A stretch of 14,279 nt of DNA from a virus (taxonomy: Duplodnaviria > Heunggongvirae > Uroviricota > Caudoviricetes), in IMG/VR virus record IMGVR_UViG_3300029079_000040. One strand, given 5' to 3'. A model generated the notes under the pieces. That model was not told the origin of the DNA, searched no databases, and was given only the letters and a program-made list of their open reading frames with translations. Positions 790 through 14,279 of this stretch are shown here, piece after piece; the first letter of the stretch is position 1, and each line of letters begins with the position of its first letter. Made by a program: the position numbers and the translations under genes.

Positions 790-828
790 AATTATCTCCA
801 TTTTCACAAATGAACTTTGTTGATGCGG

Positions 829-1861: not shown

Positions 1862-1871
1862 TTTTCGCACC

Positions 1872-2006
1872 TCACATCTTGTTGTTGCGGATAGAGGCTT
1901 CTGCCTGCCAGAGATCCCAGTCGTTGCTGCGTAGAGCCTGTACAGCCTGGCTGTAAGTGATATCGCAACAATCCATCAAATACTGAACTACTTCGTAATG
2001 CACCAT
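1872..2006 (-). CDS. ydaG: YdaG-like small protein, 44 aa
   Basis: Hand translation of the minus strand: MVHYEVVQYLMDCCDITYSQAVQALRSNDWDLWQAEASIRNNKM, preceded by GGAGAG-ATAAG-ATG. Size and position match Rac ydaG as recalled. Confidence 0.5.
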   Translation of the reverse strand: MVHYEVVQYLMDCCDITYSQAVQALRSNDWDLWQAEASIRNNKM

Positions 2007-2115
2007 CTTATCTCTCCCCTTAACGCCGGGTGGGTGAATTTTAACTGGGAGAGCTGGCGTCCGAATGTCGTCCAGCCAGGAATTGCGAAGTAATTTTTAC
2101 CGGGAGAAAAATTTA
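2007..2115. promoter_or_regulatory. 109-bp divergent intergenic region between the ydaG start (minus) and the first plus-strand gene; expected site of divergent early promoters and operators, but no repressor gene is present
   Basis: Positional inference only; no operator repeats confidently identified. Confidence 0.3.
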
Positions 2116-2877: not shown

Positions 2878-2892
2878 TTGCCGGAGGCACCT

Positions 2893-3315
2893 ATGGCAAA
2901 AGTATTTACACCAGAAGAGCGAGAAAAAATTAAAGGACAGGTTGTTGAACTTGTACCTCTGAGCGGTCGCGAGACGTTACGGCAACTGGAAGCCAAGACA
3001 GGTGAGACAAGATATCTGATGAGTGTTCTCGCCAGTGAGCTGGTTGCCAGTGGCGATGTATACAACTCTGGTTACGGGTTATTCCCGTCTGAACAGGCGC
3101 GTAAAGACTGGCAAAACGCCCGCAAAAAACTATCGAGGGCAAAGGTGAAGAAACCTGCTGTAGTTGATCCGGACCTTATCTGGTCATTACCAGACGGAGA
3201 AATACGCCGCTATGACAGGCGTCTGAATATAATCTGTCGCGAGTGCCGGAAGAGCGAAGTCATGCAGCGTGTACTGGCGTTCTATCAGGGTAATTTTCAG
3301 GATGTGCTGTTGTGA
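2893..3315 (+). CDS. Hypothetical protein, 140 aa, basic C-terminal half with a CxxC pair
   Basis: Track ORF 2878..3315; start preferred at MAKVFTPEEREK (ATG 2893) with GGAGG upstream. Function not recognised. Confidence 0.5.
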   Translation: MAKVFTPEEREKIKGQVVELVPLSGRETLRQLEAKTGETRYLMSVLASELVASGDVYNSGYGLFPSEQARKDWQNARKKLSRAKVKKPAVVDPDLIWSLPDGEIRRYDRRLNIICRECRKSEVMQRVLAFYQGNFQDVLL

Positions 3316-3419
3316 GCCAAATTAACAATCAGGGAACTGCGTGAACTGAAAGAGAAATCATAATCCAAATCTGAATAATTAAATTTAGCACTGTAAATAA
3401 AATTTAATCCTTAACCGGA

Positions 3420-3428
3420 GGGGGGGGG
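3420..3428. repeat. Homopolymeric G9 tract in the leader of the 3478 gene
   Basis: Read directly: CCGGA-GGGGGGGGG-CTGCGCCCTC, about 50 nt upstream of the ATG at 3478. It is followed by a GCCC-GAAA-GGGC tetraloop hairpin that sits next to the Shine-Dalgarno sequence. Confidence 0.9.
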
Positions 3429-3477
3429 CTGCGCCCTCAAAATATTAGGAGGCGGCCCGAAAGGGCGGTAATGAAAA

Positions 3478-3981
3478 ATGACTGAATTAACCAAAAAGCA
3501 ATTAATCGAAGAAGCTAAATTAAAAATAGCGATTGAGAAATGCCACCCCAATTCAGGGATGGCACGGGTAGAGGGCGAATTATTCAAAATTGCTCTGGCA
3601 TCGCTGGAAGCAGAGCCAGTTGGTGATTTTTATGAATACAAACCGGATGACTGGTATCAGCGTTCGGCTGGAGATAAAGCGCCAAAATGGACGCCACCCT
3701 ATGCCGTTTTTCCAGCGCCCGTAGTGCCGGAAGAAATGGATTTGCTTACATGCCATCTCGATGGTGTAACTGAAACATATGCTGAGGGATGGAACGCTTG
3801 CCGCGCTGCCCTGCTTCAGGGCAAAGGGGAGCCCGGGAAACAAGTTCGCGAATTGACAATGCTGGTTAAACAATTGGTTAGTCAACTGAAGAAACCGAAA
3901 CCGGGCTGCAAATTGCCGGATAAAGTGATGGACTACCTGGAGCGAAGCGGACTTATAAGCGTGGAGGATGTTTTACGATGA
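3478..3981 (+). CDS. Hypothetical protein, 167 aa
   Basis: Track ORF; TAGGAGG 11 nt upstream. N-terminal predicted helical/coiled region (MTELTKKQLIEEAKLKIAIEK). Family not recognised with confidence. Confidence 0.55.
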   Translation: MTELTKKQLIEEAKLKIAIEKCHPNSGMARVEGELFKIALASLEAEPVGDFYEYKPDDWYQRSAGDKAPKWTPPYAVFPAPVVPEEMDLLTCHLDGVTETYAEGWNACRAALLQGKGEPGKQVRELTMLVKQLVSQLKKPKPGCKLPDKVMDYLERSGLISVEDVLR

Positions 3982-4061
3982 CCTGGCCTGAAGCATTCAC
4001 AACGGTAGGAATTGCGATGGCGGTGGCGCTGGTGGTGTATTCGATTTGCCGCTGGGGTTGA
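3978..4061 (+). CDS. Possible 27-aa single-pass membrane peptide, translationally coupled to the upstream gene
   Basis: ATG at 3978 overlaps the upstream TGA (ATGA). Translation MTWPEAFTTVGIAMAVALVVYSICRWG has a hydrophobic core. It ends just before a terminator-like hairpin. Too short for the ORF track. Confidence 0.3.
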   Translation: MTWPEAFTTVGIAMAVALVVYSICRWG

Positions 4062-4073
4062 TAATACTAAATA

Positions 4074-4097
4074 ACCAGCCCTTATGGGGCTGGCTAA
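4074..4097. terminator. Bidirectional terminator-like hairpin between convergent genes
   Basis: CCAGCCC-TTAT-GGGCTGG stem-loop at about 4075-4093, between the 27-aa ORF (+) and the KilA-N gene (-). A-/T-rich flanks on both sides. Confidence 0.4.
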
Positions 4098-4101
4098 TCA
4101 T

Positions 4102-4875
4102 TTAGAACTGTTCATTGCCATCGAGGTTAGGTAGCATAATTTTTTCAATCAAGGCGAGAGCCTTTTTGTCCCGGTCAGCGAAGTATTTCGGGGCATATTG
4201 CGGCAACCAAATATTGTTAAAATGTTCTTTGAAATCTGCTAAATATTCATTTGGGTACAGCCTTGCAGGGTATACGCGACCATCGGGATATTCATGGTCA
4301 TAGGTAGGGAATGTTTTGGGTTCTACGTTTCTATTATCTCTTAACCATTGTGAAAATACTCTTCCTTGTGAAATGTCAGGAACCATTTTTTCTGGGAGTG
4401 TGTACCCTGCTTGTTCAAGAGGTGCAACCAAGTTGAATGTCAGTTCATTAAGAATAGAAAAGTGCGTGTGAGGAATTCTACTACGATTAACCATGTACCG
4501 TTTTAAATGTACAGGCATTTCTGCTGTAGTTCTTTCCCCTGACATCCATTCACGAACCCATCTTGAAACCTGGACTGCAAATTTGGGCGATAGCCACTGC
4601 GCTAGATTAATAGCGATGTCAGGATGCACCCATGTCCCTTGGTTTTCAGGTCTTCCACCTTTAAATGATTGAATTAACTCCGATATGGGAATTCCCATAT
4701 CGCGTGATAATTCGTCAAAAAACTCTTGAGTAGTTTTGAGTCTAGTGTAATCAGAGAGCAGTTTGCCCGCAGTTCTACACATTGATGTGGCGTTTATGTA
4801 ACCATCTTTGGCACGTAAATGTATTATTTCGCCGTCAATTTCACGAGAAATCAAAGATAATTGAAAGGATGTCAT
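4102..4875 (-). CDS. KilA-N domain protein, 257 aa
   Basis: N-terminal region (GYINATSMCRTAGKLLSDYTRL ... GTWVHPDIAINLAQWLSPKFAVQVSRWV) matches the KilA-N/APSES-type DNA-binding domain signature as I know it. GAGGAA 8 nt upstream of the ATG. C-terminal domain unrecognised. Confidence 0.75.
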   Translation of the reverse strand: MTSFQLSLISREIDGEIIHLRAKDGYINATSMCRTAGKLLSDYTRLKTTQEFFDELSRDMGIPISELIQSFKGGRPENQGTWVHPDIAINLAQWLSPKFAVQVSRWVREWMSGERTTAEMPVHLKRYMVNRSRIPHTHFSILNELTFNLVAPLEQAGYTLPEKMVPDISQGRVFSQWLRDNRNVEPKTFPTYDHEYPDGRVYPARLYPNEYLADFKEHFNNIWLPQYAPKYFADRDKKALALIEKIMLPNLDGNEQF

Positions 4876-5341
4876 TGAAAATTCCTCAAGTTGGAGAGTT
4901 CTGGAACATTAAGGCGAGGTGGCAGTAATGCACCATCTGTAATCTTTTGATACTGACGTAATCGGGCCTGATGTGCAACGCCTTGCAAGTATGTAACTCA
5001 TTGAAAACGATCATTTTTATCTATTGACATCAAATGGCAAACTGTCATTGTGCGGCTATGGCAAGTGGCAAATGCTTATAAATCATATGGATATAAATAG
5101 TACAGAAAGAGTTGTTTTCTCTAGGATATGAGTATACGCCCAATGCTGATTGGTTGAATTTTGTTCTTGTTTTAAAGGGTAAGAGTTTAAAGTGTTGGCA
5201 GTGATGTATTGGATAGTTAGAATTGCTGTGGGTGCTTGAGGCTATCTGCCTCGGGCATGAACACCAAAGGTAGATAGAGAAAAGCCCCAGTTAACATTAC
5301 GCGTCCTGCAAGACGTTTAACATTAATCTGAGGCCATATCT

Positions 5342-5401
5342 ATGCGACACATAGAGATTAGCCTCTTACGGACCGAAAGGTCAAGGAGAAGCAGGCTATG
5401 A
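5342..5401 (+). CDS. Short leader ORF (19 codons) ending in ATGA overlap with the hok start; possible mok-like coupling frame
   Basis: ATG 5342 to TGA 5399-5401, overlapping hok ATG 5398-5400. By analogy to mok/hok translational coupling; weak. Confidence 0.25.
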   Translation: MRHIEISLLRTERSRRSRL

Positions 5402-5523
5402 AGCAGCAAAAGGCGATGTTAATCGCCCTGATCGTCATCTGTTTAACCGTCATAGTGACGGCACTGGTAACGAGGAAAGACCTCTGCGAGGTACGAATCC
5501 GAACTGGCAGACGGAGGCTCTGA
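5398..5523 (+). CDS. hokD: Hok/Gef-family type I toxin (HokD/RelF-like N-terminus), 41 aa as read; C-terminus diverges or is frameshifted
   Basis: Translation MKQQKAMLIALIVICLTVIVTALVTRKDLCEVRIRTG-RRRL. The first 37 residues match HokD/RelF as I remember it. AGGAG 9 nt upstream. Canonical Hok proteins continue ...QTEVAVFTAYEPEE; here the +1 frame reads QTEALIRRLLI. Confidence 0.65.
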   Translation: MKQQKAMLIALIVICLTVIVTALVTRKDLCEVRIRTGRRRL

Positions 5524-5605
5524 TTCGTAGACTACTAATCTGAGTAAAAGACCCAGCGGGGAAAGAACCACGCCGGGACTAGTTAATAAGATATTTATAG
5601 CGTGG

Positions 5606-5947
5606 CTATTCTTTTTTTGCGGTATAGACTTTTTCGCCTGAGAAGTCTGGAGCTACCCAAAAGTTAATATTAAACTGAGCATCATCGCTTAGTTCAACAC
5701 GGTGCCAGTATTGTGGTGGGCTTGTTGCAAAAGCGCCAGCATTAATGACTACTTTTATCTCCGGTTCAGTAGCATTCTCATCAGCAAAACCATAATATGT
5801 TACAGTACCTTCCATCACGCATAACTGTCCAAAAACACCTGCTGCTGTATTATGATGTGTTAATAACGCTGAAGGTACGTTCTCTTTTGTGAAGAACGGA
5901 GTTGAGCGTTTGATTACCCAGTCTTTAGGAATTCTCTTGTGTGTCAT
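5606..5947 (-). CDS. YeaR-like protein (DUF1971, tellurite-resistance-related family), 113 aa
   Basis: Track ORF 5606..5971; start preferred at MTHKRIPKDWVIKRSTPFF (ATG 5947) with GGGAGGTG 5 nt upstream. Aligns by eye with chromosomal YeaR (RSTPFW..., FNIDFFVAPE-like motif FNINFWVAPD). Confidence 0.7.
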   Translation of the reverse strand: MTHKRIPKDWVIKRSTPFFTKENVPSALLTHHNTAAGVFGQLCVMEGTVTYYGFADENATEPEIKVVINAGAFATSPPQYWHRVELSDDAQFNINFWVAPDFSGEKVYTAKKE

Positions 5948-5961
5948 AACCACCTCCCATA

Positions 5962-5986
5962 AAACATGCATTATAAATGCACCTTT
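5962..5986. promoter_or_regulatory. NsrR-box-like palindrome ATGCAT-TATAA-ATGCAC immediately upstream of the YeaR-like gene
   Basis: Sequence AAACATGCATTATAAATGCACCTTT compared with the NsrR consensus AAGATGCATTT-n-AAATGCATCTT (established for E. coli, including the chromosomal yeaR promoter). The match is judged by eye. Confidence 0.35.
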
Positions 5987-6314
5987 TTGAGGGTTATGTC
6001 AAGCTGTTATGAAACACATAATTGATATGTTGATTAGAGGAGAAGATAGAATCAATATGGTTGTTTTTCGTATAACTATTTGTTTTACTTTTAGTTTGTG
6101 CATTCTGTGTGTTAGGAATAACTTATTAAAGTTTAACTAAAAAATCTCGATATAGTCCGCATAGATTACTGTTACTGAATCTTATTGTGTGCATTAGTTG
6201 TGTTCTGAAATTTCAATTTAATTACTTATGATATATTTTTAACGATAAATGTTTTCCGGGTGAAAGACAGTGGGGGATGAGATAAGCAATATATCATTAA
6301 TCTTGATTATTTCC

Positions 6315-6376
6315 AGGATGCCTTTACTGTGCATATAAATAAATCATATACGCATCAAATAATGTAAAGGCATCCT
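6315..6376. repeat. Perfect 13-bp inverted repeat AGGATGCCTTTAC / GTAAAGGCATCCT separated by 36 nt of AT-rich sequence
   Basis: Read directly from the sequence (6315-6327 and 6364-6376). The loop contains TGTGCATATAAAT; the right arm is followed by TTTTAG. Confidence 0.9.
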
Positions 6377-6814
6377 TTTAGATATATCTTATCAAATGTT
6401 AATGATTTGAGTGGGAAACATGATTCCAGAAACTAATCATGCGGCTACTTTATAAAAATAATGCCCATATAAAACAGCCAGCGAAAAGGATTACGGATAA
6501 AAAAGGAGCGAGATGTGCATAGTTGTTATTTTCCATGTTTAACCACCTTAAATAATTGATGATGACGGGATGTGCATCTGTAATGCTTTTGTTGAAATGT
6601 TATGATAAAAAAGAACTTTTTCATAACATTAAAATGTAATTTATCTAATCGTTTTTAATAATAAGTGTTGTATTTCTATCCTTGTATCAGCTATTTGATA
6701 TGTAGTGTTTGTTCATGTTATGTGGAGCTTTACACCATAGCCAGTTTATTTATACTTTATTCGTCAGCCTGAACAACTGGCATCTGCTGCACTGCGCCAT
6801 CGAGAGATTGAGAA

Positions 6815-7414
6815 ATGGCGCATATACAACTGGTCAAACAAACCTCTTCTGGACTACTTCTCCCGGCGACGCCGGAGAGTTGCGATTTTTTGCATCAAAT
6901 CAAAATAGGCGAGTGGATACACGCAGACTTTAAGCGTGTGCGTAACTACGCATTCCACAAGCGTTTTTTCAAACTCCTGCAACTGGGATTCGATTACTGG
7001 ACTCCGGTCGGTGGGGCGATCACGCCTCGCGAACGAAAGCTGGTTTCAGGATTCGTTGATTACCTATGTGAATCAGTAGGCCGGGAACATACGCCAGCTC
7101 TGAGCGAAGCCGCAGAGCAATATCTGAATACAGTTGCGACACGCAGAACCCGGGATACGGCATTGCTAAAGTCGTTTGAGGCTTTCCGCGAGTGGGTAAC
7201 CATTCAGGCCGGATTTTACACCGAGCATCTTTATCCTGATGGTAGCCATGGGCGTCGGGCGAAATCCATCGCTTTTGCGAATATGGACGAAACCGAGTTT
7301 CAGCAGGTTTATAAATCTGTTCTGAATGTGCTGTGGAACTGGATTCTGTTCCGTAAATTTTCCTCTCCGGAACAAGTCGAAAATGTGACCGCGCAGCTGC
7401 TGGAGTTTGCGTAA
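6815..7414 (+). CDS. nin-region protein, DUF1367-like, 199 aa
   Basis: Track ORF. Position immediately upstream of the YbcO-like gene and Q; the family name is a recollection. The stop overlaps the next start (TAATG). Confidence 0.6.
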   Translation: MAHIQLVKQTSSGLLLPATPESCDFLHQIKIGEWIHADFKRVRNYAFHKRFFKLLQLGFDYWTPVGGAITPRERKLVSGFVDYLCESVGREHTPALSEAAEQYLNTVATRRTRDTALLKSFEAFREWVTIQAGFYTEHLYPDGSHGRRAKSIAFANMDETEFQQVYKSVLNVLWNWILFRKFSSPEQVENVTAQLLEFA

Positions 7415-7704
7415 TGGTGGATTTACGTAAAGCGGCGCGGGGGCAGATGTGCACCGTCAGAATTCCTGGCTACTGCAATCACGATCCGGAAACGTCTGTG
7501 CTGGCGCATTACCGACTGGCGGGAACGTGCGGAACAGCGACAAAACCACACGATATGCAGGCGGCGATTGCCTGTAGCTCATGCCACGATCTAATCGACG
7601 GGCGGGTAAAAACCAGCGATTACACCAAAGAAGAATTACGCCTGATGCATGCAGAAGGTGTTTTTCGCACACAAGAAATCTGGAGAAAGGAGGGATATTT
7701 GTGA
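7414..7704 (+). CDS. ybcO: YbcO-like protein (DUF1364, putative metal-dependent nuclease), 96 aa
   Basis: MVDLRKAARGQMCTVRIPGYCNHDPETSVLAHYR ... ACSSCHD closely resembles DLP12 YbcO (MADLRKAARGRECQVRIPGVCN...) as I recall it, with conserved Cys residues and the same length. Confidence 0.7.
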   Translation: MVDLRKAARGQMCTVRIPGYCNHDPETSVLAHYRLAGTCGTATKPHDMQAAIACSSCHDLIDGRVKTSDYTKEELRLMHAEGVFRTQEIWRKEGYL

Positions 7705-8243
7705 TTTACCCAACGAATACAGGAAAAAGCGGAGAACACCTTCGTCTCGCCACGCTGGAAAGTGTCTGGATTCAGGGCAAACTGCGTATGTGGGGGCGCT
7801 GGTCGTATATTGGCGGTGGCAGGTCAGGAAATATGTTCAATCAGTTGTTGGCATCCAAAAAATTGACGAAAACAGCCATCAATGAAGCCCTGCGCAGAAT
7901 GAAAAAAGCGGGAATAGAGAAAGCTGAGCTGGAAGCGTTTTTGCGAGAGATGATCAACGGCAAGCAAAAGAGCTGGCTGGCGCATTGTACTGATGCAGAG
8001 GCGTTATGTATTGATCGAGTCATAAGTGAGGTGCTGGCAGAGCATCCTGGATTGATTAGTGTCCTCCGGCAACGGTATGAAGGACGGGGGATGACTAAGC
8101 GCAAAATGGCTGAATTGCTAAATGATGCACATCCTGAGTGGTGTTTTAGCACATGCGAAAAGCGAATTGCTAATTGGTTGGCTGTTGCTGAGTATGCCCT
8201 ATATATTCCCATGCGAGAATCATTTGCTCAAAAAATAGCTTGA
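7701..8243 (+). CDS. Late-gene antiterminator Q-like protein, about 180 aa from a GTG start
   Basis: Track ORF 7581..8243; preferred start is GTG 7701 (AAGGAGGG 5 nt upstream, GTGA overlap with the ybcO-like stop). Position directly upstream of a promoter-plus-terminator unit and the lysis cassette. Family assignment (phage Q antiterminator) is by context and partial recollection. Confidence 0.55.
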   Translation: MIYPTNTGKSGEHLRLATLESVWIQGKLRMWGRWSYIGGGRSGNMFNQLLASKKLTKTAINEALRRMKKAGIEKAELEAFLREMINGKQKSWLAHCTDAEALCIDRVISEVLAEHPGLISVLRQRYEGRGMTKRKMAELLNDAHPEWCFSTCEKRIANWLAVAEYALYIPMRESFAQKIA

Positions 8244-8270
8244 TTTTTTACGCATAAACTGCTTCAATTC
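8240..8270 (+). promoter_or_regulatory. Candidate late promoter (PR-prime analogue): TTGATT-17 nt-TTCAAT overlapping the Q stop
   Basis: -35-like TTGATT at 8240-8245 and -10-like TTCAAT at 8263-8268; about 60 nt upstream of a terminator. By eye only. Confidence 0.3.
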
Positions 8271-8326
8271 CGGTATGCTTCGCAAAGCTGTATCGCGAGG
8301 CGAACCAAGCGCATGAACTTTACCAG

Positions 8327-8356
8327 AACCCGCCATTGAGCGGGTTTTGTTGTTTC
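8327..8356 (+). terminator. Intrinsic terminator, tR-prime analogue downstream of Q
   Basis: AACCCGC-CATTGA-GCGGGTT stem-loop followed by TTTTGTTGTTTCT. Confidence 0.55.
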
Positions 8357-8404
8357 TGGTACTGGTGAACCTGATGTTTCATTTCTGGAGCGCGATTCCT
8401 GGCG

Positions 8405-8436
8405 GAATACCTAGAATCGAGACATTCTGGTAAAAT
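8405..8436 (+). promoter_or_regulatory. Candidate extended -10 promoter (TGgTAAAAT) for the membrane-protein moron
   Basis: TGG-TAAAAT at 8428-8436, about 30 nt upstream of the ATG at 8465. Weak -35. Confidence 0.3.
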
Positions 8437-8464
8437 TGTTTTCAGTACAGGATGTGGAGGTGAG

Positions 8465-9034
8465 ATGAGAGAACTACCTAAAGATTATTTTTTAGGAGTA
8501 GATGATGAGCTCGTCGATTATCTTGAAAAACAAGGGGAAGAGACGATACGAGAGATTCATCTTTCTAACAAAACCAATGTTGAGAATGGATACAAACTTC
8601 TGAACATTCAGATTGTTGGAATTGGTTCATCTTTTTTATTGCTGACACAGAAAACTAATTTCGATTTTCTCACCGCCGGAATTACCACATTTACATTACT
8701 ATGGACATGGTGCGCCATTTACTTGGTATGTACTGGTTTATCTGTGAAGGTTAGGGGCCTGATCAATGCCCCTCCTGATCATATATATCATGAAAAATAT
8801 AAGGATATGGAGCCCTCGAGCTTTAAAATATTCGCTGATGCAGGATATTTAGGACCTGATAAGTTATTGCCGCTTATACGAAGGTATCGCCTTGTTGACT
8901 TGAGTGATACAGCAAGAGAGTTACTGTTGGAAAATGAGAAAATCCGCACGAGTCTCGATAAAGCAAGGATGTATACCATCCTTGCTCCGGTAGCGGCGAT
9001 GTTTATCTCGGCTGTTTTTTTATATGTTCAATGA
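8465..9034 (+). CDS. Hypothetical integral membrane protein, 189 aa, three predicted transmembrane helices; moron between Q and the holin
   Basis: Track ORF with GGAGGTGAG immediately upstream. Hydrophobic segments LLNIQIVGIGSSFLLL, ITTFTLLWTWCAIYLVCTGL and MYTILAPVAAMFISAVFLYV; acidic N-terminus. Visibly AT-rich compared with the flanking Q and lysis genes. No family recognised. Confidence 0.65.
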   Translation: MRELPKDYFLGVDDELVDYLEKQGEETIREIHLSNKTNVENGYKLLNIQIVGIGSSFLLLTQKTNFDFLTAGITTFTLLWTWCAIYLVCTGLSVKVRGLINAPPDHIYHEKYKDMEPSSFKIFADAGYLGPDKLLPLIRRYRLVDLSDTARELLLENEKIRTSLDKARMYTILAPVAAMFISAVFLYVQ

Positions 9035-9164
9035 CTGAGTCGGCAGAATCTCCAACAAAAACACGACGTGTAGCAAAGTCTGTAGTACTTTGTGTTGGAG
9101 TTGGTTTTGGTGCCACGGGTTGCTGAGGTTTATTTTCACCTTGTGGTTTGTTTTTTTCAGACAT
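9003..9164 (-). CDS. Possible 53-aa Pro/Gln/Lys-rich small protein, convergent with and overlapping the 3-prime end of the membrane-protein gene
   Basis: Within track ORF 9003..9395; internal start MSEKNKPQGENKPQQPVAPKPTPTQSTTDFATRRVFVGDSADSVIEHIKKQPR has AGAGGA 5 nt upstream of the ATG at 9164..9162. Low complexity. Confidence 0.4.
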   Translation of the reverse strand: MSEKNKPQGENKPQQPVAPKPTPTQSTTDFATRRVFVGDSADSVIEHIKKQPR

Positions 9165-9258
9165 AAAAATCCTCTTTGTTTGAATTGTTACTTTTGGCGA
9201 TTTAACGATATCAAACACGAGTATATACCGCCAGAAGCTTAATCTGGCACTCCATCTG

Positions 9259-9286
9259 GCCCCGGCATGTCCCGGGGCTTTTTCGT
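9259..9286 (+). terminator. Strong intrinsic terminator upstream of the holin gene
   Basis: GCCCCGG-CATGTC-CCGGGGC stem followed by TTTTTCGTTGTT. Confidence 0.6.
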
Positions 9287-9381
9287 TGTTAGGCTCTGGA
9301 AACATCCTCGACTTCTTGTTAGCAAGCCTGAGAGCCTGAATCTTACACTTAGCACCATCCGAACTCTCGGAGGTGAGGCTT

Positions 9382-9723
9382 ATGAAAATGCACAATGCCC
9401 CTCATTCCTGGCCTGACTTACTGGAACTCTTACAAAGTTGGTGGCGTGGAGATACGCCGCTGGGTGCAGTGGTTATGTCAATTATTATGGCTGGTTTGCG
9501 CATTGCCTATTTTGGCGGTGGCGGCGGCTGGAAACGAAAAACGCTTGAGATTCTGCTTTGTGGTGCTCTGACGCTGACCTTTGCATCCGCGCTTGAGTAT
9601 GTCGGATGGCCTAAATCACTTTCTGTTGCCATTGGTGGTGGGGTGGGGCTGATTGGTGTTGATGCTATTCGTGGTGCGGCAATGAGGGTCATCGGTAACA
9701 AGTTCGGTGCCCATAAGGAGTAA
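9382..9723 (+). CDS. S: Class I holin with Met-Lys-Met dual-start motif (lambda S-like arrangement), 113 aa from the first ATG
   Basis: GGAGGTGA 6 nt upstream of ATG 9382. MKMHNAP... parallels lambda S107/S105 (MKMPEK). Three hydrophobic segments. Immediately followed by the R endolysin. The track used an upstream GTG (9373). Confidence 0.75.
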   Translation: MKMHNAPHSWPDLLELLQSWWRGDTPLGAVVMSIIMAGLRIAYFGGGGGWKRKTLEILLCGALTLTFASALEYVGWPKSLSVAIGGGVGLIGVDAIRGAAMRVIGNKFGAHKE

Positions 9724-9726
9724 TTA

Positions 9727-10203
9727 ATGCAGACACTTAATTCCCAGCGTAAAGCTTTCCTTGATATGGTGGCATGGTCAGAAGGAACAGATAACGGACG
9801 GCAGAAAACCAGAAATCACGGTTATGATGTTATTGTCGGTGGCGAACTGTTCACTGATTACTCCGATCACCCCCGCAAACTTGTCACGCTAAATCCGAAA
9901 CTCAAATCAACAGCCGCTGGACGTTACCAGCTTCTTTCACGCTGGTGGGATGCCTACCGCAAGCAACTTGGCCTGAAAGATTTTTCTCCAGAAAGTCAGG
10001 ATGCTGTAGCGCTGCAGCAGATTAAAGAGCGTGGCGCTTTGCCGATGATTGATCGCGGTGATATCCGTCAGGCTATCGACCGTTGCAGCAATATATGGGC
10101 TTCACTGCCGGGCGCTGGTTATGGTCAGTTCGAGCATAAGGCTGACAGTCTGATTGCAAAATTCAAAGAAGCTGGCGGAACGGTCAGAGAGATTGAGGTA
10201 TGA
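9727..10203 (+). CDS. R: Endolysin, lambda R-type lytic transglycosylase, 158 aa
   Basis: Near-identical by eye to lambda R (…[58 protein letters not shown]…). Confidence 0.9.
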
Positions 10204-10681
10204 GCAGAGTAACCGCGATTATCTCCGCTCTGGTTATCTGCATCGTCGTCTGCCTGTCATGGGGTGTTAATCATTACCGTGATAACGCCATCGCCTACAA
10301 AGAACAGCGCGACAAAAATGCCAGAGAACTGAAGCTGGCGAACGCGGCAATTACTGACATGCAGATGCGTCAGCGTGATGTTGCTGCGCTCGATGCAAAA
10401 TACACGAAGGAGTTAGCTGATGCGAAAGCTGAAAATGATGCTCTGCGTGATGATGTTGCCGCTGGTCGTCGTCGGTTGCACATCAAAGNNNNNNNNNNNN
10501 NNNNNNNNTCTGTCAGTCAGTGCGTGAAGCCACCACCGCCTCCGGCGTGGATAATGCAGCCTCCCCCCGACTGGCAGACACCGCTGAACGGGATTATTTC
10601 ACCCTCCGGGAACGACTGGTAATGATGCAGGCCCAACTTGAAGGTGCTCAGCAATACATAACCGAGCAGTGTTTAAAGTAA
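10200..10681 (+). CDS. Rz: Rz i-spanin; reading frame interrupted by a 20-nt N run, so coordinates are in window numbering
   Basis: N-terminal [96 protein letters not shown] matches lambda Rz. After the N run, the correct frame reads ...[57 protein letters not shown], stop at 10679-10681. Confidence 0.85.
10420..10622 (+). CDS. Rz1: Rz1 o-spanin lipoprotein embedded in the +1 frame of Rz
   Basis: AAGGAG 8 nt upstream of ATG 10420. [23 protein letters not shown]...[N run]...[37 protein letters not shown] matches lambda Rz1, with its lipobox LVVVGC and proline-rich region. Confidence 0.8.
10489..10508. other. Run of 20 N (assembly gap or masked bases) inside Rz/Rz1
   Basis: Literal n characters in the sequence. 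Comparison with lambda suggests the real content here is about 3 nt (CAG), not 20. Confidence 1.
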
Positions 10682-10818
10682 AATCTTAACTACAATATGA
10701 TTCATTTTGATGATTGTTTCATAAGGAACAGTGAAGTAAGATCTAAGAGGAGTTAAATTTTATACAGTATAATCATAATATTGCAGCAAGGTGGTTATAA
10801 TTGAAAGAATATTTAGAT

Positions 10819-12276
10819 ATGAATACATCTCATGTAAGAGTTGTTACTCATATGTGTGGGTTCCTGGTTTGGCTCTATAGTCTTTCAATGTTGCCACCAA
10901 TGGTTGTAGCATTGTTTTATAAAGAAAAAAGCCTGTTCGTTTTCTTTATAACTTTCGTTATATTTTTTTGCATTGGTGGCGGAGCGTGGTATACAACTAA
11001 GAAATCTGGCATTCAATTACGTACCCGTGATGGGTTTATTATAATTGTAATGTTTTGGATTTTGTTTTCTGTTATTAGTGCATTCCCTTTATGGATTGAC
11101 TCAGAACTTAATTTAACGTTCATTGATGCTCTGTTTGAAGGGGTTTCTGGAATAACAACAACAGGAGCAACTGTAATTGATGATGTTAGTTCATTACCTC
11201 GGGCATATTTGTACTATCGGTCACAGTTAAATTTTATAGGTGGTTTAGGAGTTATTGTTCTGGCGGTTGCTGTATTGCCATTATTGGGTATTGGTGGTGC
11301 AAAGCTTTATCAGTCAGAAATGCCGGGGCCATTTAAGGATGACAAACTCACTCCCCGCCTGGCCGATACGTCACGGACACTGTGGATAACTTATTCTTTA
11401 TTAGGTATTGCTTGTATTGTCTGTTATAGACTTGCAGGAATGCCTTTGTTTGATGCTATTTGTCACGGGATTTCCACAGTTTCGCTTGGTGGTTTCTCAA
11501 CTCATAGCGAGAGTATCGGATATTTTAATAACTATTTGGTTGAGCTGGTGGCTGGTTCTTTTTCCCTGCTATCGGCTTTCAACTTCACTCTTTGGTATAT
11601 TGTTATTAGCAGGAAAACGATAAAACCTTTAATCAGAGATATTGAACTTCGTTTCTTTCTGTTAATAGCCTTAGGGGTGATCATTGTTACCTCTTTCCAG
11701 GTCTGGCATATAGGTATGTATGACTTGCATGGAAGTTTTATTCATTCGTTTTTTCTTGCCAGCTCCATGCTCACTGATAATGGTTTAGCTACGCAGGATT
11801 ATGCAAGTTGGCCCACGCACACGATAGTGTTTTTGCTGTTGTCAAGTTTCTTTGGGGGATGTATAGGTTCAACTTGTGGTGGAATTAAGTCACTTCGATT
11901 TCTTATACTTTTCAAACAAAGCAAACACGAGATAAATCAGCTTTCTCATCCCAGAGCGTTGTTGAGTGTAAATGTAGGAGGGAAGATAGTTACAGATCGT
12001 GTAATGAGGTCTGTATGGAGTTTCTTTTTTCTTTATACTCTCTTCACGGTGTTTTTTATACTGGTGTTAAATGGTATGGGATATGATTTTCTTACATCAT
12101 TTGCAACAGTGGCTGCATGTATTAATAATATGGGATTAGGTTTTGGGGCTACTGCATCGTCATTCGGAGTGCTTAATGACATTGCAAAATGTTTAATGTG
12201 CATAGCTATGATTCTTGGTCGCCTTGAAATTTATCCTGTTATTATATTGTTTTCAGGTTTTTTTTGGCGCTCCTAA
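10819..12276 (+). CDS. trkG: TrkG, TrkH-family potassium uptake membrane protein, 485 aa
   Basis: Multi-pass membrane protein with repeated pore-loop-like GxG motifs. Sequence from MNTSHVRVVTHMCGFLVWLY matches Rac trkG as I recall it, and the position directly after Rz/Rz1 is the Rac arrangement. Track ORF starts at TTG 10801; the ATG at 10819 gives 485 aa. Confidence 0.85.
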   Translation: MNTSHVRVVTHMCGFLVWLYSLSMLPPMVVALFYKEKSLFVFFITFVIFFCIGGGAWYTTKKSGIQLRTRDGFIIIVMFWILFSVISAFPLWIDSELNLTFIDALFEGVSGITTTGATVIDDVSSLPRAYLYYRSQLNFIGGLGVIVLAVAVLPLLGIGGAKLYQSEMPGPFKDDKLTPRLADTSRTLWITYSLLGIACIVCYRLAGMPLFDAICHGISTVSLGGFSTHSESIGYFNNYLVELVAGSFSLLSAFNFTLWYIVISRKTIKPLIRDIELRFFLLIALGVIIVTSFQVWHIGMYDLHGSFIHSFFLASSMLTDNGLATQDYASWPTHTIVFLLLSSFFGGCIGSTCGGIKSLRFLILFKQSKHEINQLSHPRALLSVNVGGKIVTDRVMRSVWSFFFLYTLFTVFFILVLNGMGYDFLTSFATVAACINNMGLGFGATASSFGVLNDIAKCLMCIAMILGRLEIYPVIILFSGFFWRS

Positions 12277-12362
12277 TATATGGCTGATTTATAATTGTGA
12301 GTTTAATATTATGTTGACTCACTCATTGATCCAATACCTAACTTTACCAGCAACACCTCCGT

Positions 12363-12397
12363 CCCCAGTAGCACTGGCTGCTGGGGTGCGTTTTATT
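12363..12397 (+). terminator. Possible intrinsic terminator after trkG
   Basis: CCCCAG...CTGGGG imperfect stem followed by TGCG-TTTTATT. Confidence 0.3.
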
Positions 12398-12413: not shown

Positions 12414-13205
12414 ATGAGCGAGAAATTAAAGATAGTCTATCGCCCATTACAAGAATTGTCACCGTATGCGCACAACGCCAGGACGCACAGTACTGAGCAG
12501 GTGGCACAACTGGTAGAAAGTATTAAGCAATTCGGCTGGACTAATCCGGTGCTGATTGACGAAAAGGGCGAAATTATTGCGGGTCACGGTCGTGTTATGG
12601 CGGCTGAAATGCTCAAAATGGATTCTGTTCCGGTCATTGTTCTGTCTGGCCTGACGGATGAGCAGAAAAAGGCGTACCGCCTGGCAGATAATCGCCTGCC
12701 GATGAATGCTGGCTGGGATGAAGATCTGTTGCGGATGGAGCTGTCGGACCTAATCAATGCTGATTTTGATGTCTCCCTGACAGGCTTCATCCCGACAGAA
12801 ATTGATGAACTGTTGACGGATGTTTTGCCCGGTACAGGAAATGAGGAGGAGCCGTATACGACGAAAATTGATACGCCTGTTTATGAGCCGTCGGGCGGTA
12901 AACCGGATATCAGTGAACTGTACGACGATACGAAAACTCAGGAGCTGATCAGCCGGATACGTTCGGCGTCCCTTGAGCCTGATATTGAGAAATTCCTCCT
13001 GTGTGCGGCAGAACGTCACACGGTGTTTAATTTCAGCAGAATTGCGGACTATTACGCTCACGCCCCCTCTGAAATTCAGTGTTTTTTCGAGGAGTCGGCG
13101 CTGGTGATCATTGATTATCAGCAGGCTATTGAAAATGGATTTGTCCGGATGACGCAGCGCATGGTGGAGATCATGCATGGTGGTGAGGAGGAGGAATATG
13201 CGTGA
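12414..13205 (+). CDS. ParB/Srx-like N-terminal domain protein, 263 aa, acidic C-terminal tail
   Basis: N-terminal region (YRPLQELSPYAHNARTHS...SIKQFGWTNPVLIDEKGEIIAGHGRVMAAEML...VPVIV) fits the ParB/sulfiredoxin fold signature. Likely a full-length relative of Rac ynaK (recollection). The C-terminus GGEEEEYA also encodes the Shine-Dalgarno sequence of the next gene. Confidence 0.7.
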   Translation: MSEKLKIVYRPLQELSPYAHNARTHSTEQVAQLVESIKQFGWTNPVLIDEKGEIIAGHGRVMAAEMLKMDSVPVIVLSGLTDEQKKAYRLADNRLPMNAGWDEDLLRMELSDLINADFDVSLTGFIPTEIDELLTDVLPGTGNEEEPYTTKIDTPVYEPSGGKPDISELYDDTKTQELISRIRSASLEPDIEKFLLCAAERHTVFNFSRIADYYAHAPSEIQCFFEESALVIIDYQQAIENGFVRMTQRMVEIMHGGEEEEYA

Positions 13206-14130
13206 TGATTTTTGCGCCTTTATTCTGACTCACGGGCGACCGGACAAAGTTCTGACTTACCGGACGTTGCGTCGTGCTGGCTATACCGGGAAAATTTTTA
13301 TCGTTGTTGATGATGAAGATAAGACACGGCATCAGTACATGGCTGAATTTGGTGAACAGGTGCTGGTGTTTTCCAAAGCCGATATCGCCAGTCGTTTTGA
13401 CGAAGCCGATAATTTCTGTGACCGCCGCTCAATTTTTTACGCCCGTAATGCCTGTTTCGACCTGGCAAAACTGGTCGGGTGTAAATACTTCATTCAGCTC
13501 GATGATGATTATCACGAGTTCCAGTTTCGGGTGGATCGCAACTATGACCAGGCCTATTTTCCGATAAGGAAACTGGATGCGATCCTTTCTGAAATGCTGG
13601 CGTACTACGAATCAATACCTGCTCTTTCCATCGCTATGTCGCAGGGCGGGGATTTTCTTGGTGACAATGGCGGCCATGCTTCGTGGGTGAAACGCAAGGC
13701 AATGAACAGCTTTATCTGTTCGGTTGATCGACCGTTCTCATTCATGGGGCGCATTAACGAGGATGTGAATACGTACACGAATCTCGGTCGCTGTGGTGAA
13801 TTGTTTATGACGATCGGTGCTGTCCAGTTAGGGCAGAAACAGACGCAGAAAAACAGCGGCGGAATGACCGAGCTGTATCTGGATTCCGGAACCTACGTTA
13901 AAAGTTTTTACTCCGTCATGTATGCGCCGTCGTGCGTAAAAATCTCACTGATGGGTGCCAGCCATAAACGCATTCACCATCAGGTCACCTGGAACAACGC
14001 TGCAGTAAAAATCCTTCACGAAAAATACAGGAAGAAGACACCCTGCATATCAATGGGGGTGACAAATGATTCCGTATTCGAAAGTCGAGTCTCTGGCAGC
14101 GTGCCGGATGACTGCACAACAAATCGCTGA
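13198..14130 (+). CDS. GT-A-fold-like (nucleotide-diphospho-sugar transferase-like) protein, 310 aa, with DXD-type motif
   Basis: Start at ATG 13198 (GAGGAGG upstream, ATGCGTGA overlap with the ParB-like stop). Motifs CAFILTHGRPDKV, IFIVVDDEDKT and YFIQLDDDY resemble the beta-strand/DXD pattern of GT2-type glycosyltransferases. No transmembrane segment obvious. Possibly a full-length relative of Rac ydaY. Function is an inference from motifs. Confidence 0.5.
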   Translation: MRDDFCAFILTHGRPDKVLTYRTLRRAGYTGKIFIVVDDEDKTRHQYMAEFGEQVLVFSKADIASRFDEADNFCDRRSIFYARNACFDLAKLVGCKYFIQLDDDYHEFQFRVDRNYDQAYFPIRKLDAILSEMLAYYESIPALSIAMSQGGDFLGDNGGHASWVKRKAMNSFICSVDRPFSFMGRINEDVNTYTNLGRCGELFMTIGAVQLGQKQTQKNSGGMTELYLDSGTYVKSFYSVMYAPSCVKISLMGASHKRIHHQVTWNNAAVKILHEKYRKKTPCISMGVTNDSVFESRVSGSVPDDCTTNR

Positions 14131-14279
14131 CGTTCTGGATGTTGATCTGAACCGACTGAAAGAAAATCGGGAAGCAATGACAGATTTTTATGCGGCTATC
14201 CGGTTTGATAAATATGACGGTAGCGCAACAACTTTTCTTGGTGATGCGTATATTGATACACAAACGCTTGAAATTAATA
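14066..14279 (+). CDS. 5-prime part of a gene running off the window end; HTH-like N-terminus, possibly a DNA-packaging (small terminase-like) protein
   Basis: GGGGGTGA 4 nt upstream of ATG 14066; open frame to the window end (MIPYSKVESLAACRMTAQQIADVLDVDLNRLKEN...). Overlaps the preceding gene by 65 nt. Function is a guess from position. Confidence 0.35.
   Translation, partial: MIPYSKVESLAACRMTAQQIADVLDVDLNRLKENREAMTDFYAAIRFDKYDGSATTFLGDAYIDTQTLEIN

What the first reader, a model, noticed from the sequence alone, without database searches (positions are those of the whole stretch)
12414..14130. Translationally coupled ParB/Srx-like and GT-A-like gene pair upstream of the packaging genes: candidate DNA-modification module
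A ParB/Srx-fold protein (a DNA-binding, NTP-binding fold that in phages is often fused to DNA methyltransferases) is followed, with an 8-nt overlap, by a soluble protein whose motifs (ILTHGRPD, IVVDDED, LDDDY) look like a nucleotide-sugar transferase. The ParB C-terminal EEEE codons double as the ribosome-binding site of the second gene. This location between lysis and packaging is where lambdoid phages commonly carry ParB-methyltransferase anti-restriction genes. A ParB plus glycosyltransferase pairing would suggest sugar modification of DNA, or of another nucleotide-containing substrate, and I do not know of it as a characterised system. In K-12 Rac the corresponding genes (ynaK, ydaY) are, as I recall, truncated or pseudogenised, so this may be an intact version.
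Basis: partly seen in the sequence, partly recalled or inferred. Interest (0 to 1): 0.65.

Follow-up and report, generated by a model that had tools for sequence, protein, structure and literature searches.

The report
Phage DNA sugar-transferase with clamp adaptor
Two overlapping prophage genes encode a sugar-transferring enzyme of a family known to decorate phage DNA and a partner protein that probably holds it on DNA. The pair occurs in phages of many bacterial phyla and in one archaeal virus, yet nobody has tested what it modifies.

Summary
ORF A (12414-13205, 263 aa) has a ParB/Srx N-terminal domain. ORF B (13198-14130, 310 aa) is a GT-A glycosyltransferase of Pfam PF20691 (TAGT), the family of the T2/T6 DNA glucosyltransferase. 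The genes overlap by 8 nt behind a GAGGAGGAGGAA ribosome-binding stretch.

The pairing is not chance. In 73 of 76 genomic loci spanning more than ten bacterial phyla, an ORF A homologue lies immediately upstream of the TAGT gene. One haloarchaeal virus has the pair too. The constant partner is only the C-terminal half of ORF A. In many phages that half stands alone, begins with a beta-clamp-binding-like motif (MKQxxLFG) and often lies between DNA polymerase and sliding-clamp genes.

My best reading is an adaptor that tethers a DNA glycosyltransferase to DNA, through a ParB-type module here and through the replicative clamp elsewhere.

The acceptor is unknown. No hydroxymethyl-pyrimidine-making enzyme accompanies the pair.

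Two corrections. In this window the packaging genes are deleted after 14202. In K-12, ynaK is the truncated ORF A, but ydaY is not the transferase's counterpart.

The pair is uncharacterised experimentally. I rate it a new variant of a known kind.

The parts
12363..12386 (+). Terminator-like hairpin after the low-GC trkG moron, 28 nt upstream of ORF A. This is context, not part of the module.
   Evidence: The scan gives a 10-bp stem with 7 G-C pairs followed by TGCGTTTTAT. GC is 35-39% across trkG and about 49-50% in ORF A and ORF B.
12414..13205 (+). ORF A, 263 aa: a ParB/Srx N-domain, a linker motif and a C-terminal TAGT-partner domain.
   Evidence: ORF listing; PHROG 620 over the full length, E 1e-90; 100% identical to the H10407 protein WP_001291105.1.
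12414..12818 (+). ParB/Srx-fold N-terminal module, residues 1-135. It includes GHGR (12582-12593), which aligns with ParB box II GERR, and ADN (residues 91-93), which aligns with box III.
12855..12890 (+). Conserved linear motif Y148-T-T-K-I-D-T-P-V-Y-E-P159 (consensus YTKKIxxPxYEP), at the start of the partner region.
   Evidence: Y148, K151, P155, Y157 and P159 are invariant in alignment A2. The motif is conserved in the stand-alone partners of distant phages.
12906..13178 (+). Helical TAGT-partner domain, about residues 165-255 (FLLxAAERHTVFNFSxIADYYAH...SALVIIDYQQAIENGF). It has no Pfam family.
   Evidence: This is the only part of ORF A kept in the 129-170 aa stand-alone partners. A library of 50%-identity representatives holds 1189 hits, and in the 150 best listed the domain lies in the C-terminal part of the protein in most. 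The AF2 model is helical but of low confidence.
13185..13196 (+). GAGGAGGAGGAA: the four Glu codons of ORF A, which also form a Shine-Dalgarno-like stretch for ORF B.
   Evidence: Read directly from the sequence. The acidic tail is conserved in enterobacterial homologues.
13198..14130 (+). ORF B, 310 aa: a GT-A glycosyltransferase of family PF20691 (TAGT). Active-site-type residues are R14 (13237-13239), D102-D104 (13501-13509) and E188-D189 (13759-13764).
14108..14202 (+). The first 31-32 codons of a small ORF that is 69 aa long and precedes the small terminase gene in intact prophages. It is cut here by a deletion.
   Evidence: Compared with H10407 locus L002 15809-16018.
14203..14279 (+). 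Tail-fibre gene fragment joined at the deletion junction 14202/14203. All packaging and head genes are missing in this prophage.
   Evidence: Matches to tail-fibre genes of other phages. PGAP calls it 'phage tail protein, missing N-terminus'.

Best explanation
ORF A and ORF B form a two-gene DNA-glycosylation module of tailed phages.

ORF B is a soluble GT-A enzyme. It uses a nucleotide-sugar donor, held through the DDD metal site, to put a sugar on phage DNA.

ORF A is its adaptor. The C-terminal domain, with the YTKKIxxPxYEP motif, binds or activates the transferase. The N-terminal ParB/Srx module binds DNA and perhaps an NTP, and keeps the enzyme on the DNA.

In other phages the same partner domain lacks the ParB module. 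There it carries an N-terminal beta-clamp-binding-like peptide, so the replicative sliding clamp would do the tethering.

The pair is translated together from the late transcript, just before the terminase genes in intact prophages. Progeny DNA would therefore be decorated before or during packaging and resist nucleases in the next host.

Shown here: the family and fold assignments, the near-obligate gene pairing, the overlap, and the modular swap of tethers.

Inferred: physical binding of the two proteins, DNA as the substrate, clamp binding, and the anti-restriction benefit.

Unknown: the sugar and the acceptor atom.

In this window the prophage has lost its packaging genes, so the intact pair is probably stranded.
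For: Family and fold
- ORF B is in PF20691 at 122 bits. R14, DDD102-104 and ED188-189 are invariant. The fold is GT-A.
- Characterised relatives glycosylate DNA: the T2/T6 enzyme (PMC13216743) and the 5mYOX-associated GT-A enzymes (10.1101/2023.12.21.572611).

Pairing
- An ORF A homologue lies directly upstream in 73 of 76 loci from more than ten phyla.
- The pair is also in the haloarchaeal virus HHTV-2, Lactobacillus phage phi jlb1 and Nocardia phage NTR1.
- The stop/start overlap is conserved.

Links to DNA
- The N-module of ORF A is the one fused to phage DNA methyltransferases (PHROG 498, E 9e-51; PADLOC MTase_II, E 1.5e-38).
- Stand-alone partners start with M-K-Q-x-[NED]-[LM]-F. Qxx[LMIF]F occurs in 27 of 59 unique N-termini against 9 of 719 control ORFs (Fisher p 5e-26).
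- 28 of 80 such loci carry a beta-clamp gene just downstream, and many carry polA upstream.
- Tandem TAGT paralogues, cytidylyltransferase-like genes and sugar-nucleotide genes occur in these clusters.

Precedents
- Phage thymine dioxygenases need a ParB-like activator that lacks a DNA-binding domain (PMC13229309).
- T4 alpha-glucosyltransferase co-purifies with the gp45 clamp (PMC13216743).
- Aravind and co-workers proposed that ParB proteins direct modification enzymes to DNA during packaging (as cited in PMC8256090).
Against: - No enzyme that makes 5-hydroxymethyl-pyrimidines (TET/5mYOX or a thymidylate-synthase-like hydroxymethylase) lies in the window, in 30 kb of the H10407 prophage, or anywhere in the annotated genome of phi jlb1. 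None was common in the neighbourhood censuses. Canonical DNA has no hydroxyl like those that known DNA glycosyltransferases use.
- Box II of ORF A reads GHGR instead of GERR, so the catalytic Glu is lost and NTP hydrolysis is doubtful.
- No DNA-binding domain was detected in ORF A.
- The stand-alone partner of Vibrio phage pv27 has no clamp-binding-like motif.
- Both AF2 models are only moderately confident (mean pLDDT 63 and 66). The partner domain and the C-terminal third of ORF B are poorly modelled.
- No complex could be modelled and nothing was measured.
Confidence: 0.55

Rival explanations
1. ORF B glycosylates a protein rather than DNA. Candidates are the partner itself, at the invariant tyrosines of YTKKIxxPxYEP in the manner of glycogenin, or a DNA-bound, packaging or virion protein. 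ORF A would serve as substrate or scaffold.
For: - Canonical DNA offers no obvious acceptor, and no hydroxymethylase accompanies the pair.
- Two tyrosines in the partner motif are invariant across phyla.
- The eukaryotic TAGT relative GREB1 O-GlcNAcylates a protein (PMC7968844 abstract). PGAP names ORF B 'GREB1-related protein'.
Against: - All characterised phage members of the family act on DNA-linked acceptors.
- A protein substrate does not explain why the adaptor carries either a ParB module shared with DNA methyltransferases or a clamp-binding-like peptide.
- ORF B homologues keep 45-60% identity across phyla, and the archaeal-virus copy keeps 42.7%. That argues for a universal substrate rather than a host-specific protein.
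Confidence: 0.15
2. ORF A is a packaging, partition or regulatory ParB-like factor (a pac/cos-site accessory protein or nuclease). ORF B is a functionally separate accessory gene that happens to share the same slot before the terminase genes.
For: - A large terminase gene of one of several different Pfam families lies within two genes downstream in roughly half of the loci.
- ParB-like 'nuclease' annotations are common there.
- Late-operon starts are known slots for accessory genes. trkG is inserted right beside the pair.
Against: - Pairing is essentially obligate (73 of 76 adjacent, the other 3 nearby) and the overlap is conserved.
- The ParB module can be absent while the partner domain stays glued to the TAGT gene.
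- In many phages the pair sits in the replication module, not next to a terminase gene.
- ORF A fails the canonical ParB model (38.1 bits against a cut-off of 58.45).
- No parA is annotated in the prophage.
Confidence: 0.08
3. The transferase acts on a soluble nucleotide or signalling molecule, or drains a nucleotide-sugar pool, as an anti-defence measure. The ParB/Srx domain would supply nucleotide binding or kinase-type chemistry.
For: - The fold binds CTP, ATP or GTP in different proteins (PMC12704722).
Against: - The ParB module is dispensable in many relatives.
- A clamp-binding-like peptide and a position between polA and clamp genes point to DNA-bound action.
- The family has no precedent for a soluble small-molecule acceptor.
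Confidence: 0.05
4. In this particular genome the pair does nothing. It is an intact but stranded remnant of a decaying Rac-like prophage that can no longer package DNA.
For: - The deletion after 14202 removes the terminase, portal and head genes.
- recE, xisR and a dnaC fragment are annotated as pseudogenes in the same prophage.
- K-12 Rac shows a further stage of the same decay, with ORF A cut at residue 85 and ORF B gone.
Against: - Both ORFs are intact and identical to those of an apparently complete prophage.
- This reading concerns the present use of the pair in this strain. It is compatible with the best explanation for what the module does in phages.
- Over-expression of the truncated K-12 YnaK raised the MIC of six antibiotics in one screen, so even fragments may have effects (PMC12924614).
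Confidence: 0.3

Closest known systems
T2/T6 beta-glucosyl-HMC-alpha-glucosyltransferase and the 5mYOX-associated phage GT-A DNA glycosyltransferases (Pfam PF20691, TAGT)
   Same: Same Pfam family (122 bits), same GT-A fold, and the same R...DDD...ED active-site pattern. All are soluble phage enzymes.
   Different: - Those enzymes act on glucosyl-5hmC or 5hmC made by other phage enzymes. Here no hydroxymethylase or dioxygenase is present.
- Sequence similarity to T-even-like copies is very low. tblastn finds only Aeromonas T4-like phages, at 22-24% identity.
- This subfamily has an obligate upstream partner gene and a conserved C-terminal extension beyond the Pfam domain.
ParB-dependent phage thymine dioxygenases (5mYOX176 with ParB176; O'Toole et al. 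2026, PMC13229309)
   Same: A phage DNA-modifying enzyme is encoded next to a ParB-like protein that keeps the nucleotide-binding N-domain and a C-terminal domain but has no recognisable DNA-binding domain. GT, ParB and terminase genes are the commonest neighbours in those clusters.
   Different: - The enzyme there is an Fe/2OG dioxygenase, not a glycosyltransferase. No 5mYOX gene is present here.
- Dependence of ORF B on ORF A is untested.
ParB-like N-domain fused to phage DNA methyltransferases (PHROG 498; PADLOC MTase_II; surveyed in PMC12704722)
   Same: Residues 3-144 of ORF A are clearly homologous to the N-terminal module of these fusions (E 9e-51 and 1.5e-38). Both occur in prophages near the late genes.
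   Different: ORF A has no methyltransferase domain. The module is joined to a partner domain for a separately encoded glycosyltransferase.
T4 alpha-glucosyltransferase bound to the gp45 sliding clamp
   Same: A phage DNA glycosyltransferase is tethered to a sliding clamp (pull-down in PMC13216743). The stand-alone partners of ORF B relatives carry a clamp-binding-like N-terminus and lie beside clamp genes.
   Different: T4 alpha-GT is a GT-B enzyme that binds the clamp itself. Here the proposed tether is a separate adaptor protein, and in the window it is a ParB-type module rather than a clamp-binding peptide. Clamp binding is inferred from sequence only.
DpdA/DpdB (7-deazaguanine insertion into DNA) and DndB: ParB-like proteins working with DNA-modifying enzymes
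   Same: From my own knowledge, not tested here: DpdB is a ParB-like ATPase needed for DNA modification by DpdA. DndB is described as a ParB-like protein of the phosphorothioation system in PMC12704722.
   Different: The chemistry differs (base exchange, sulfur insertion), the setting is bacterial defence islands rather than a phage late operon, and no sequence comparison was made here.

Membership tests
Pfam PF20691 TAGT (phage GT-A DNA glycosyltransferases) | Profile score above the curated gathering threshold over the whole domain | tested here: met
   122.3 bits against a cut-off of 27.5; residues 8-222 cover profile positions 4-205 of 205. PHROG 842, E 6e-104.
Pfam PF20691 TAGT (phage GT-A DNA glycosyltransferases) | GT-A fold | tested here: met
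Pfam PF20691 TAGT (phage GT-A DNA glycosyltransferases) | Active-site pattern R...DDD...ED(Y/F), as described for phage GT-A DNA glycosyltransferases (10.1101/2023.12.21.572611) | tested here: met
   R14, D102-D104 and E188-D189 are invariant in 16 sequences at 60-100% identity to ORF B. The residue after ED is Val, not Tyr or Phe.
Pfam PF20691 TAGT (phage GT-A DNA glycosyltransferases) | Genomic association with an enzyme that makes the 5-hydroxymethyl-pyrimidine acceptor (TET/5mYOX or a ThyS-like hydroxymethylase). This gives the family its name but is not strictly defining. | tested here: not met
   None is annotated in the window's prophage, in 30 kb of the H10407 prophage, or in the whole phi jlb1 genome. 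Neither family is among the 25 most frequent families listed in either Pfam census of neighbours.
Pfam PF20691 TAGT (phage GT-A DNA glycosyltransferases) | Transfer of a sugar onto DNA | not testable with these tools
   This needs nucleoside mass spectrometry or an in vitro assay.
ParB/Srx fold (Pfam PF02195) | Profile score above threshold, and the fold itself | tested here: met
ParB/Srx fold (Pfam PF02195) | NTP-binding and hydrolysis residues of ParB CTPases (box II GERR, box III EN) | tested here: inconclusive
   GHGR aligns with GERR. R60 is invariant, but the Glu and the first Arg are replaced. D92-N93 align with EN. Binding is plausible and hydrolysis is doubtful.
Canonical partition ParB (TIGR00180) | Score above the curated cut-off | tested here: not met
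   38.1 bits against a cut-off of 58.45, and only the N-domain matches.
Canonical partition ParB (TIGR00180) | An HTH DNA-binding domain, and a ParA partner | tested here: not met
   No HTH family was detected in ORF A. No parA is annotated in the prophage. The N-terminus MSEKLKIVY lacks the LG[KR]GL-type ParA-binding motif used in PMC12704722.
ParB-dependent 5mYOX systems (PMC13229309) | A 5mYOX/TET-JBP dioxygenase gene next to the ParB-like gene | tested here: not met
   The neighbours are trkG and ORF B. ORF B is a TAGT, not a dioxygenase.
ParB-dependent 5mYOX systems (PMC13229309) | A ParB-like protein with a nucleotide-binding N-domain and a C-terminal domain but no DNA-binding domain | tested here: met
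   This is the domain layout of ORF A.
ParB-DNA methyltransferase fusions (PHROG 498, PADLOC MTase_II) | A methyltransferase catalytic domain | tested here: not met
   Only the N-terminal ParB-like part of those profiles is matched: positions 31-171 of 633 and 13-151 of 436.
Beta-clamp-binding proteins (pentapeptide QL[SD]LF type; consensus from my own knowledge) | A clamp-binding motif at a protein terminus | tested here: not met
   ORF A in the window has none. Among stand-alone partners of ORF B relatives, 27 of 59 unique N-termini have Qxx[LMIF]F and 54 of 59 have [LMIF]F at a fixed distance from the YxxK motif. Actual binding is untested.

The most novel reading that the evidence does not exclude
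The core partner-TAGT pair glycosylates ordinary DNA directly, with no hydroxymethyl-pyrimidine precursor. The target could be an exocyclic or ring nitrogen of a canonical base, or another DNA atom. The enzyme would be carried along the DNA by a sliding-clamp adaptor, of ParB type or beta-clamp-bound. That would be a new kind of DNA modification, present in thousands of temperate phages and in about one in six complete E. coli genomes.
Probability: 0.2. Interest if true: 0.9.

Novelty: new variant of a known kind. Interest (0 to 1): 0.6.

Why it matters
Phage DNA glycosylation is known mainly from T-even phages and from TET-linked clusters. In those systems a hydroxymethyl group is made first.

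Two recent surveys set aside the large class of solitary GT-A/TAGT genes. One counted 288 of 753 phage genomes and called their function yet to be defined (PMC13216743). The other found about 65% of some 25,000 contigs in this class and judged them less likely to modify DNA (10.1101/2023.12.21.572611).

This finding shows that one such subfamily always travels with a dedicated partner protein. The interchangeable N-termini of that partner both point to DNA: a ParB module shared with DNA methyltransferases, or a clamp-binding-like peptide next to polymerase and clamp genes.

If the pair does modify DNA, three things follow.

- Many temperate phages of gut and environmental bacteria, and common E. 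coli, Salmonella and Klebsiella prophages, would carry an unrecognised DNA modification. That would affect restriction, CRISPR, sequencing signals and phage therapy.
- It would extend the recent discovery that ParB-like proteins activate DNA-modifying enzymes.
- It would make the acceptor question directly testable in E. coli.

Tried and rejected
- The paper that defined TAGT (Iyer et al. 2013) is not held. I could only use what later papers cite from it.
- Two early literature searches (ParB alone, ynaK alone) returned mostly noise.
- Searching solved structures by sequence gave nothing for ORF B and only N-domain ParB and Noc matches for ORF A.
- The partner domain has no Pfam, NCBIfam or PADLOC family. 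Its AF2 model is too uncertain for a fold assignment.
- The supplementary sequences of the 5mYOX-associated ParBs are not held, so their C-terminal domains could not be compared.
- I looked for TET/5mYOX or hydroxymethylase genes near the pair and found none among the frequent neighbours. The census lists only the 25 commonest families, so rare cases cannot be excluded.
- A rough tree of TAGT sequences places clamp-motif partners in several separate blocks. My automatic classing of partner types was too crude to count switches reliably.
- I found no partner-TAGT fusion protein among the 150 best representatives.
- The literature on HHTV-2 says nothing about DNA modification.
- Rejected: ydaY as the transferase's counterpart.
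- Rejected: a partition function, because there is no ParA and no HTH and ORF A scores below the TIGR00180 cut-off.
- Rejected: a seroconversion-type envelope transferase, because ORF B is soluble and paired with a DNA-linked adaptor.
Full report
WHAT IS IN THE WINDOW

The window is a Rac-like defective prophage of E. coli. It is 100% identical to strain DP051.

ORF A runs from 12414 to 13205 (263 aa) and ORF B from 13198 to 14130 (310 aa). They overlap by 8 nt. The ORF B ATG (13198-13200) lies inside the last codons of ORF A, whose stop is 13203-13205. The four Glu codons at 13185-13196 read GAGGAGGAGGAA, which puts a GGAGG core 6 nt before the ORF B start. PGAP uses the same ORF B start.

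Upstream lies trkG, a low-GC insertion (35-39% GC against about 50%). A terminator-like hairpin follows it at 12363-12386.

Downstream, homology to intact prophages ends at 14202 and a tail-fibre fragment follows. This prophage has therefore lost its terminase, portal and head genes. In ETEC H10407 the same two proteins are 100% identical. There they sit in the order lysis genes, trkG, ORF A, ORF B, a 69-aa ORF, small terminase, large terminase, portal.

In K-12 Rac, homology stops at window position 12667. YnaK is therefore ORF A cut after residue 85, and ORF B is gone. ydaY, which follows ynaK in K-12, is a gene that lies between the tail-tube and tape-measure genes in H10407. It is not the transferase's counterpart.

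About 889 of 5426 complete E. coli genomes carry most of the region.

WHAT THE TWO PROTEINS ARE

ORF B matches Pfam PF20691, the TET-associated glycosyltransferase family (TAGT). The score is 122.3 bits against a cut-off of 27.5, and the match covers the whole domain. It also matches PHROG 842, which is annotated as beta-glucosyl-HMC-alpha-glucosyltransferase.

R14, D102-D104 and E188-D189 are invariant among homologues. They correspond to the R...DDD...ED(Y/F) pattern described for phage GT-A enzymes that put sugars on 5hmC in DNA (10.1101/2023.12.21.572611).

PF20691 includes the T2/T6 enzyme that adds a second glucose to glucosyl-5hmC (PMC13216743). No solved structure is detectable by sequence.

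ORF A has a ParB/Srx N-terminal domain:

- Pfam PF02195 scores 29.3 bits against a cut-off of 26.3.
- ORF A is not a canonical partition ParB. It falls below the TIGR00180 cut-off, has no detected HTH domain, and has no parA neighbour.
- Residues 3-144 are the same module that is fused to phage DNA methyltransferases (PHROG 498, E 9e-51; PADLOC MTase_II, E 1.5e-38).
- Box II reads GHGR rather than GERR. The phosphate-binding Arg is kept but the catalytic Glu is lost.

The C-terminal half (about residues 140-263) matches no curated family. It holds an invariant linear motif (Y148-TTKIDTPV-Y157-EP) and a helical domain.

THE PAIR IS A CONSERVED MODULE

The ORF B family is very large. All 8000 scored candidates passed E 0.001.

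A scan of one genome per species returned loci from many groups. These include Proteobacteria, Bacteroidota, several Firmicutes classes, Saccharibacteria, Acidobacteriota, Planctomycetota, Verrucomicrobiota, Kiritimatiellae, Ignavibacteria and others. Identity to the E. coli protein was 45-60%.

Of 76 loci with at least 800 nt upstream, 73 have an ORF A homologue ending at the TAGT start. The other three have one within about 0.8-1.8 kb. In most loci the upstream stop lies a few nt (typically 4-11) beyond the TAGT start, so the coupling is conserved too.

Cultured viruses with the pair include:

- Lactobacillus phage phi jlb1;
- L. delbrueckii phages of the c5/LL-Ku group (TAGT match only; I did not inspect the upstream gene);
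- Nocardia phage NTR1;
- Vibrio phages of 191-195 kb;
- the haloarchaeal virus HHTV-2, at 42.7% identity.

T-even TAGTs are too distant for tblastn to find.

A large terminase gene follows within two genes in roughly half of the loci. These terminases belong to several different Pfam families. The position is thus conserved across unrelated packaging machines.

THE CONSTANT PARTNER IS THE C-TERMINAL HALF OF ORF A

In seven genomic loci, and in 74 of 80 viral contigs retrieved with a stand-alone query, the gene upstream of the TAGT gene encodes only 129-170 residues. These residues align with ORF A positions ~140-263 and have no ParB domain.

Their N-termini follow M-K-Q-x-[N/E/D]-[L/M]-F-[G/D]. 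This motif lies 10-17 residues before the YxxK motif.

- Qxx[LMIF]F is present in 27 of 59 distinct N-termini, against 9 of 719 other ORFs from the same loci (Fisher p 5e-26).
- [LMIF]F is present in 54 of 59.

From my own knowledge, this fits the bacterial beta-clamp-binding pentapeptide QL[S/D]LF.

In 28 of the 80 contigs a DNA polymerase III beta-type clamp gene lies just downstream. A family-A DNA polymerase often lies just upstream. These clusters may also hold one or two extra TAGT paralogues, cytidylyltransferase-like genes and radical-SAM genes. Sugar-nucleotide enzymes appear in a few other loci.

The partner domain has 1189 representatives at the 50% identity level. In the 150 best listed, it lies in the C-terminal part of the protein in most.

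One exception was seen. The stand-alone partner of Vibrio phage pv27 has no such motif, although it lies among replication genes.

HOW IT MOST LIKELY WORKS

I read the module as a DNA glycosyltransferase with a dedicated adaptor. The partner domain binds or activates the enzyme. A swappable N-terminus keeps the complex on DNA: a ParB-type module in the window, or a clamp-binding peptide in other phages.

Each element has a precedent:

- Phage thymine dioxygenases need a ParB-like activator that lacks a DNA-binding domain. GT, ParB and terminase genes are the commonest neighbours in those clusters (PMC13229309).
- T4 alpha-glucosyltransferase co-purifies with the gp45 clamp (PMC13216743).
- The ParB-CTPase fold is widely fused to DNA methyltransferases in phages and can bind CTP, ATP or GTP (PMC12704722).
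- Aravind and co-workers proposed that ParB proteins direct modification enzymes to DNA during packaging (cited in PMC8256090).

The family assignments, the pairing, the overlap and the modular architecture are shown here. Protein-protein contact, clamp binding, DNA as substrate and any anti-restriction benefit are inferred.

THE MAIN DIFFICULTY

Known DNA glycosyltransferases use a hydroxyl on 5hmC, 5hmU or a sugar already attached. No TET/5mYOX or hydroxymethylase gene is annotated in any of the following:

- the window's prophage;
- 30 kb of the H10407 prophage;
- the complete 38-kb phi jlb1 genome, where no unassigned ORF outside the tail-gene block is large enough, and the 1.4-kb gap before the ParB gene has no long ORF.

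None was frequent in the neighbourhood censuses either.

Either the enzyme uses an acceptor in ordinary DNA, which would be new chemistry, or the substrate is something else. One candidate is a protein. The partner's two invariant tyrosines and the structural resemblance to glycogenin keep that rival alive.

Pyle et al. noted ParB-like, terminase and clamp genes next to GT-A genes. They considered the roughly 65% of contigs without a 5mYOX or ThyS neighbour less likely to be involved in DNA hypermodification. The T4 study counted 288 of 753 phage genomes with solitary TAGTs and called the function of TAGTs yet to be defined.

I found no paper that treats the ParB-TAGT pair itself.

VERDICT

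Two recollections need correcting: ydaY, and the presence of packaging genes in this window. One refinement is added: the partner domain, not the ParB domain, is the invariant companion of the transferase.

The proteins belong to known families and the pairing has been glimpsed in surveys, so this is not categorically new. However, a solitary TAGT with an obligate adaptor, interchangeable DNA tethers and no precursor-making enzyme is an uncharacterised variant. It is widespread and directly testable in E. coli.

In this particular strain the pair is intact but probably stranded in a prophage that can no longer package DNA.

Noticed in passing
window 10801-12386: trkG is a low-GC insertion (35-39% GC against about 50% in the flanking phage genes), placed between the lysis genes and ORF A. 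A terminator-like hairpin at 12363-12386 follows it. The same insertion is present in H10407 and K-12.
   Followed up: partly
window 14202/14203: A deletion junction fuses codon ~32 of a 69-aa pre-terminase ORF to a tail-fibre gene fragment. It removes all packaging and head genes. K-12 Rac has a different deletion that starts inside ORF A at 12667.
   Followed up: yes
window 12414-13205 (L001 14115-14372): In the source genome, PGAP annotates only the first 258 nt as a 'ynaK' pseudogene 'missing C-terminus'. Yet the 263-aa ORF is intact and identical to the H10407 protein. This looks like an annotation artefact, possibly driven by the truncated K-12 YnaK.
   Followed up: partly
L173, L177, L185, L188, L033, L070 (viral and genomic contigs): Between the DNA polymerase A and beta-clamp genes, some phages carry up to three TAGT paralogues, a second partner-like gene (L070 4460-4801), cytidylyltransferase-like genes and a radical-SAM gene. 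This suggests multi-step glycan or hypermodification pathways.
   Followed up: partly
L062, L063, L079, L085 (probably; Clostridia prophages): Five radical-SAM proteins appeared among the one or two genes directly downstream of the TAGT gene in the neighbourhood census. I inferred these loci from ORF sizes only, because the census does not name its members. Their subfamily and role were not examined.
   Followed up: no
L250 6459-6878 (Vibrio phage pv27): The stand-alone partner of this 191-kb phage has a polar N-terminus and no clamp-binding-like motif. It lies among SSB, primase, exonuclease and helicase genes. It is an exception to the motif rule.
   Followed up: partly
K-12 ynaK (L003 5378-5641): In an over-expression screen, the 87-aa truncated YnaK raised the MIC of six antibiotics 3- to 6-fold (PMC12924614). 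No mechanism is known.
   Followed up: no
L248 11350-12746 (phage phi jlb1): A 1.4-kb stretch without long ORFs lies directly upstream of the ParB-like gene. Short reading frames there look like translated tRNA genes. It might hold tRNAs, a cos site or a loading site. I did not scan it.
   Followed up: no
window ~1-10600 (L001 1702-12300): PGAP annotates a mosaic and partly decayed early region. It includes a truncated recE and xisR, a dnaC fragment, a Hok/Gef toxin gene, and KilA-N, DUF1627 and DUF977 genes. These were not examined.
   Followed up: no
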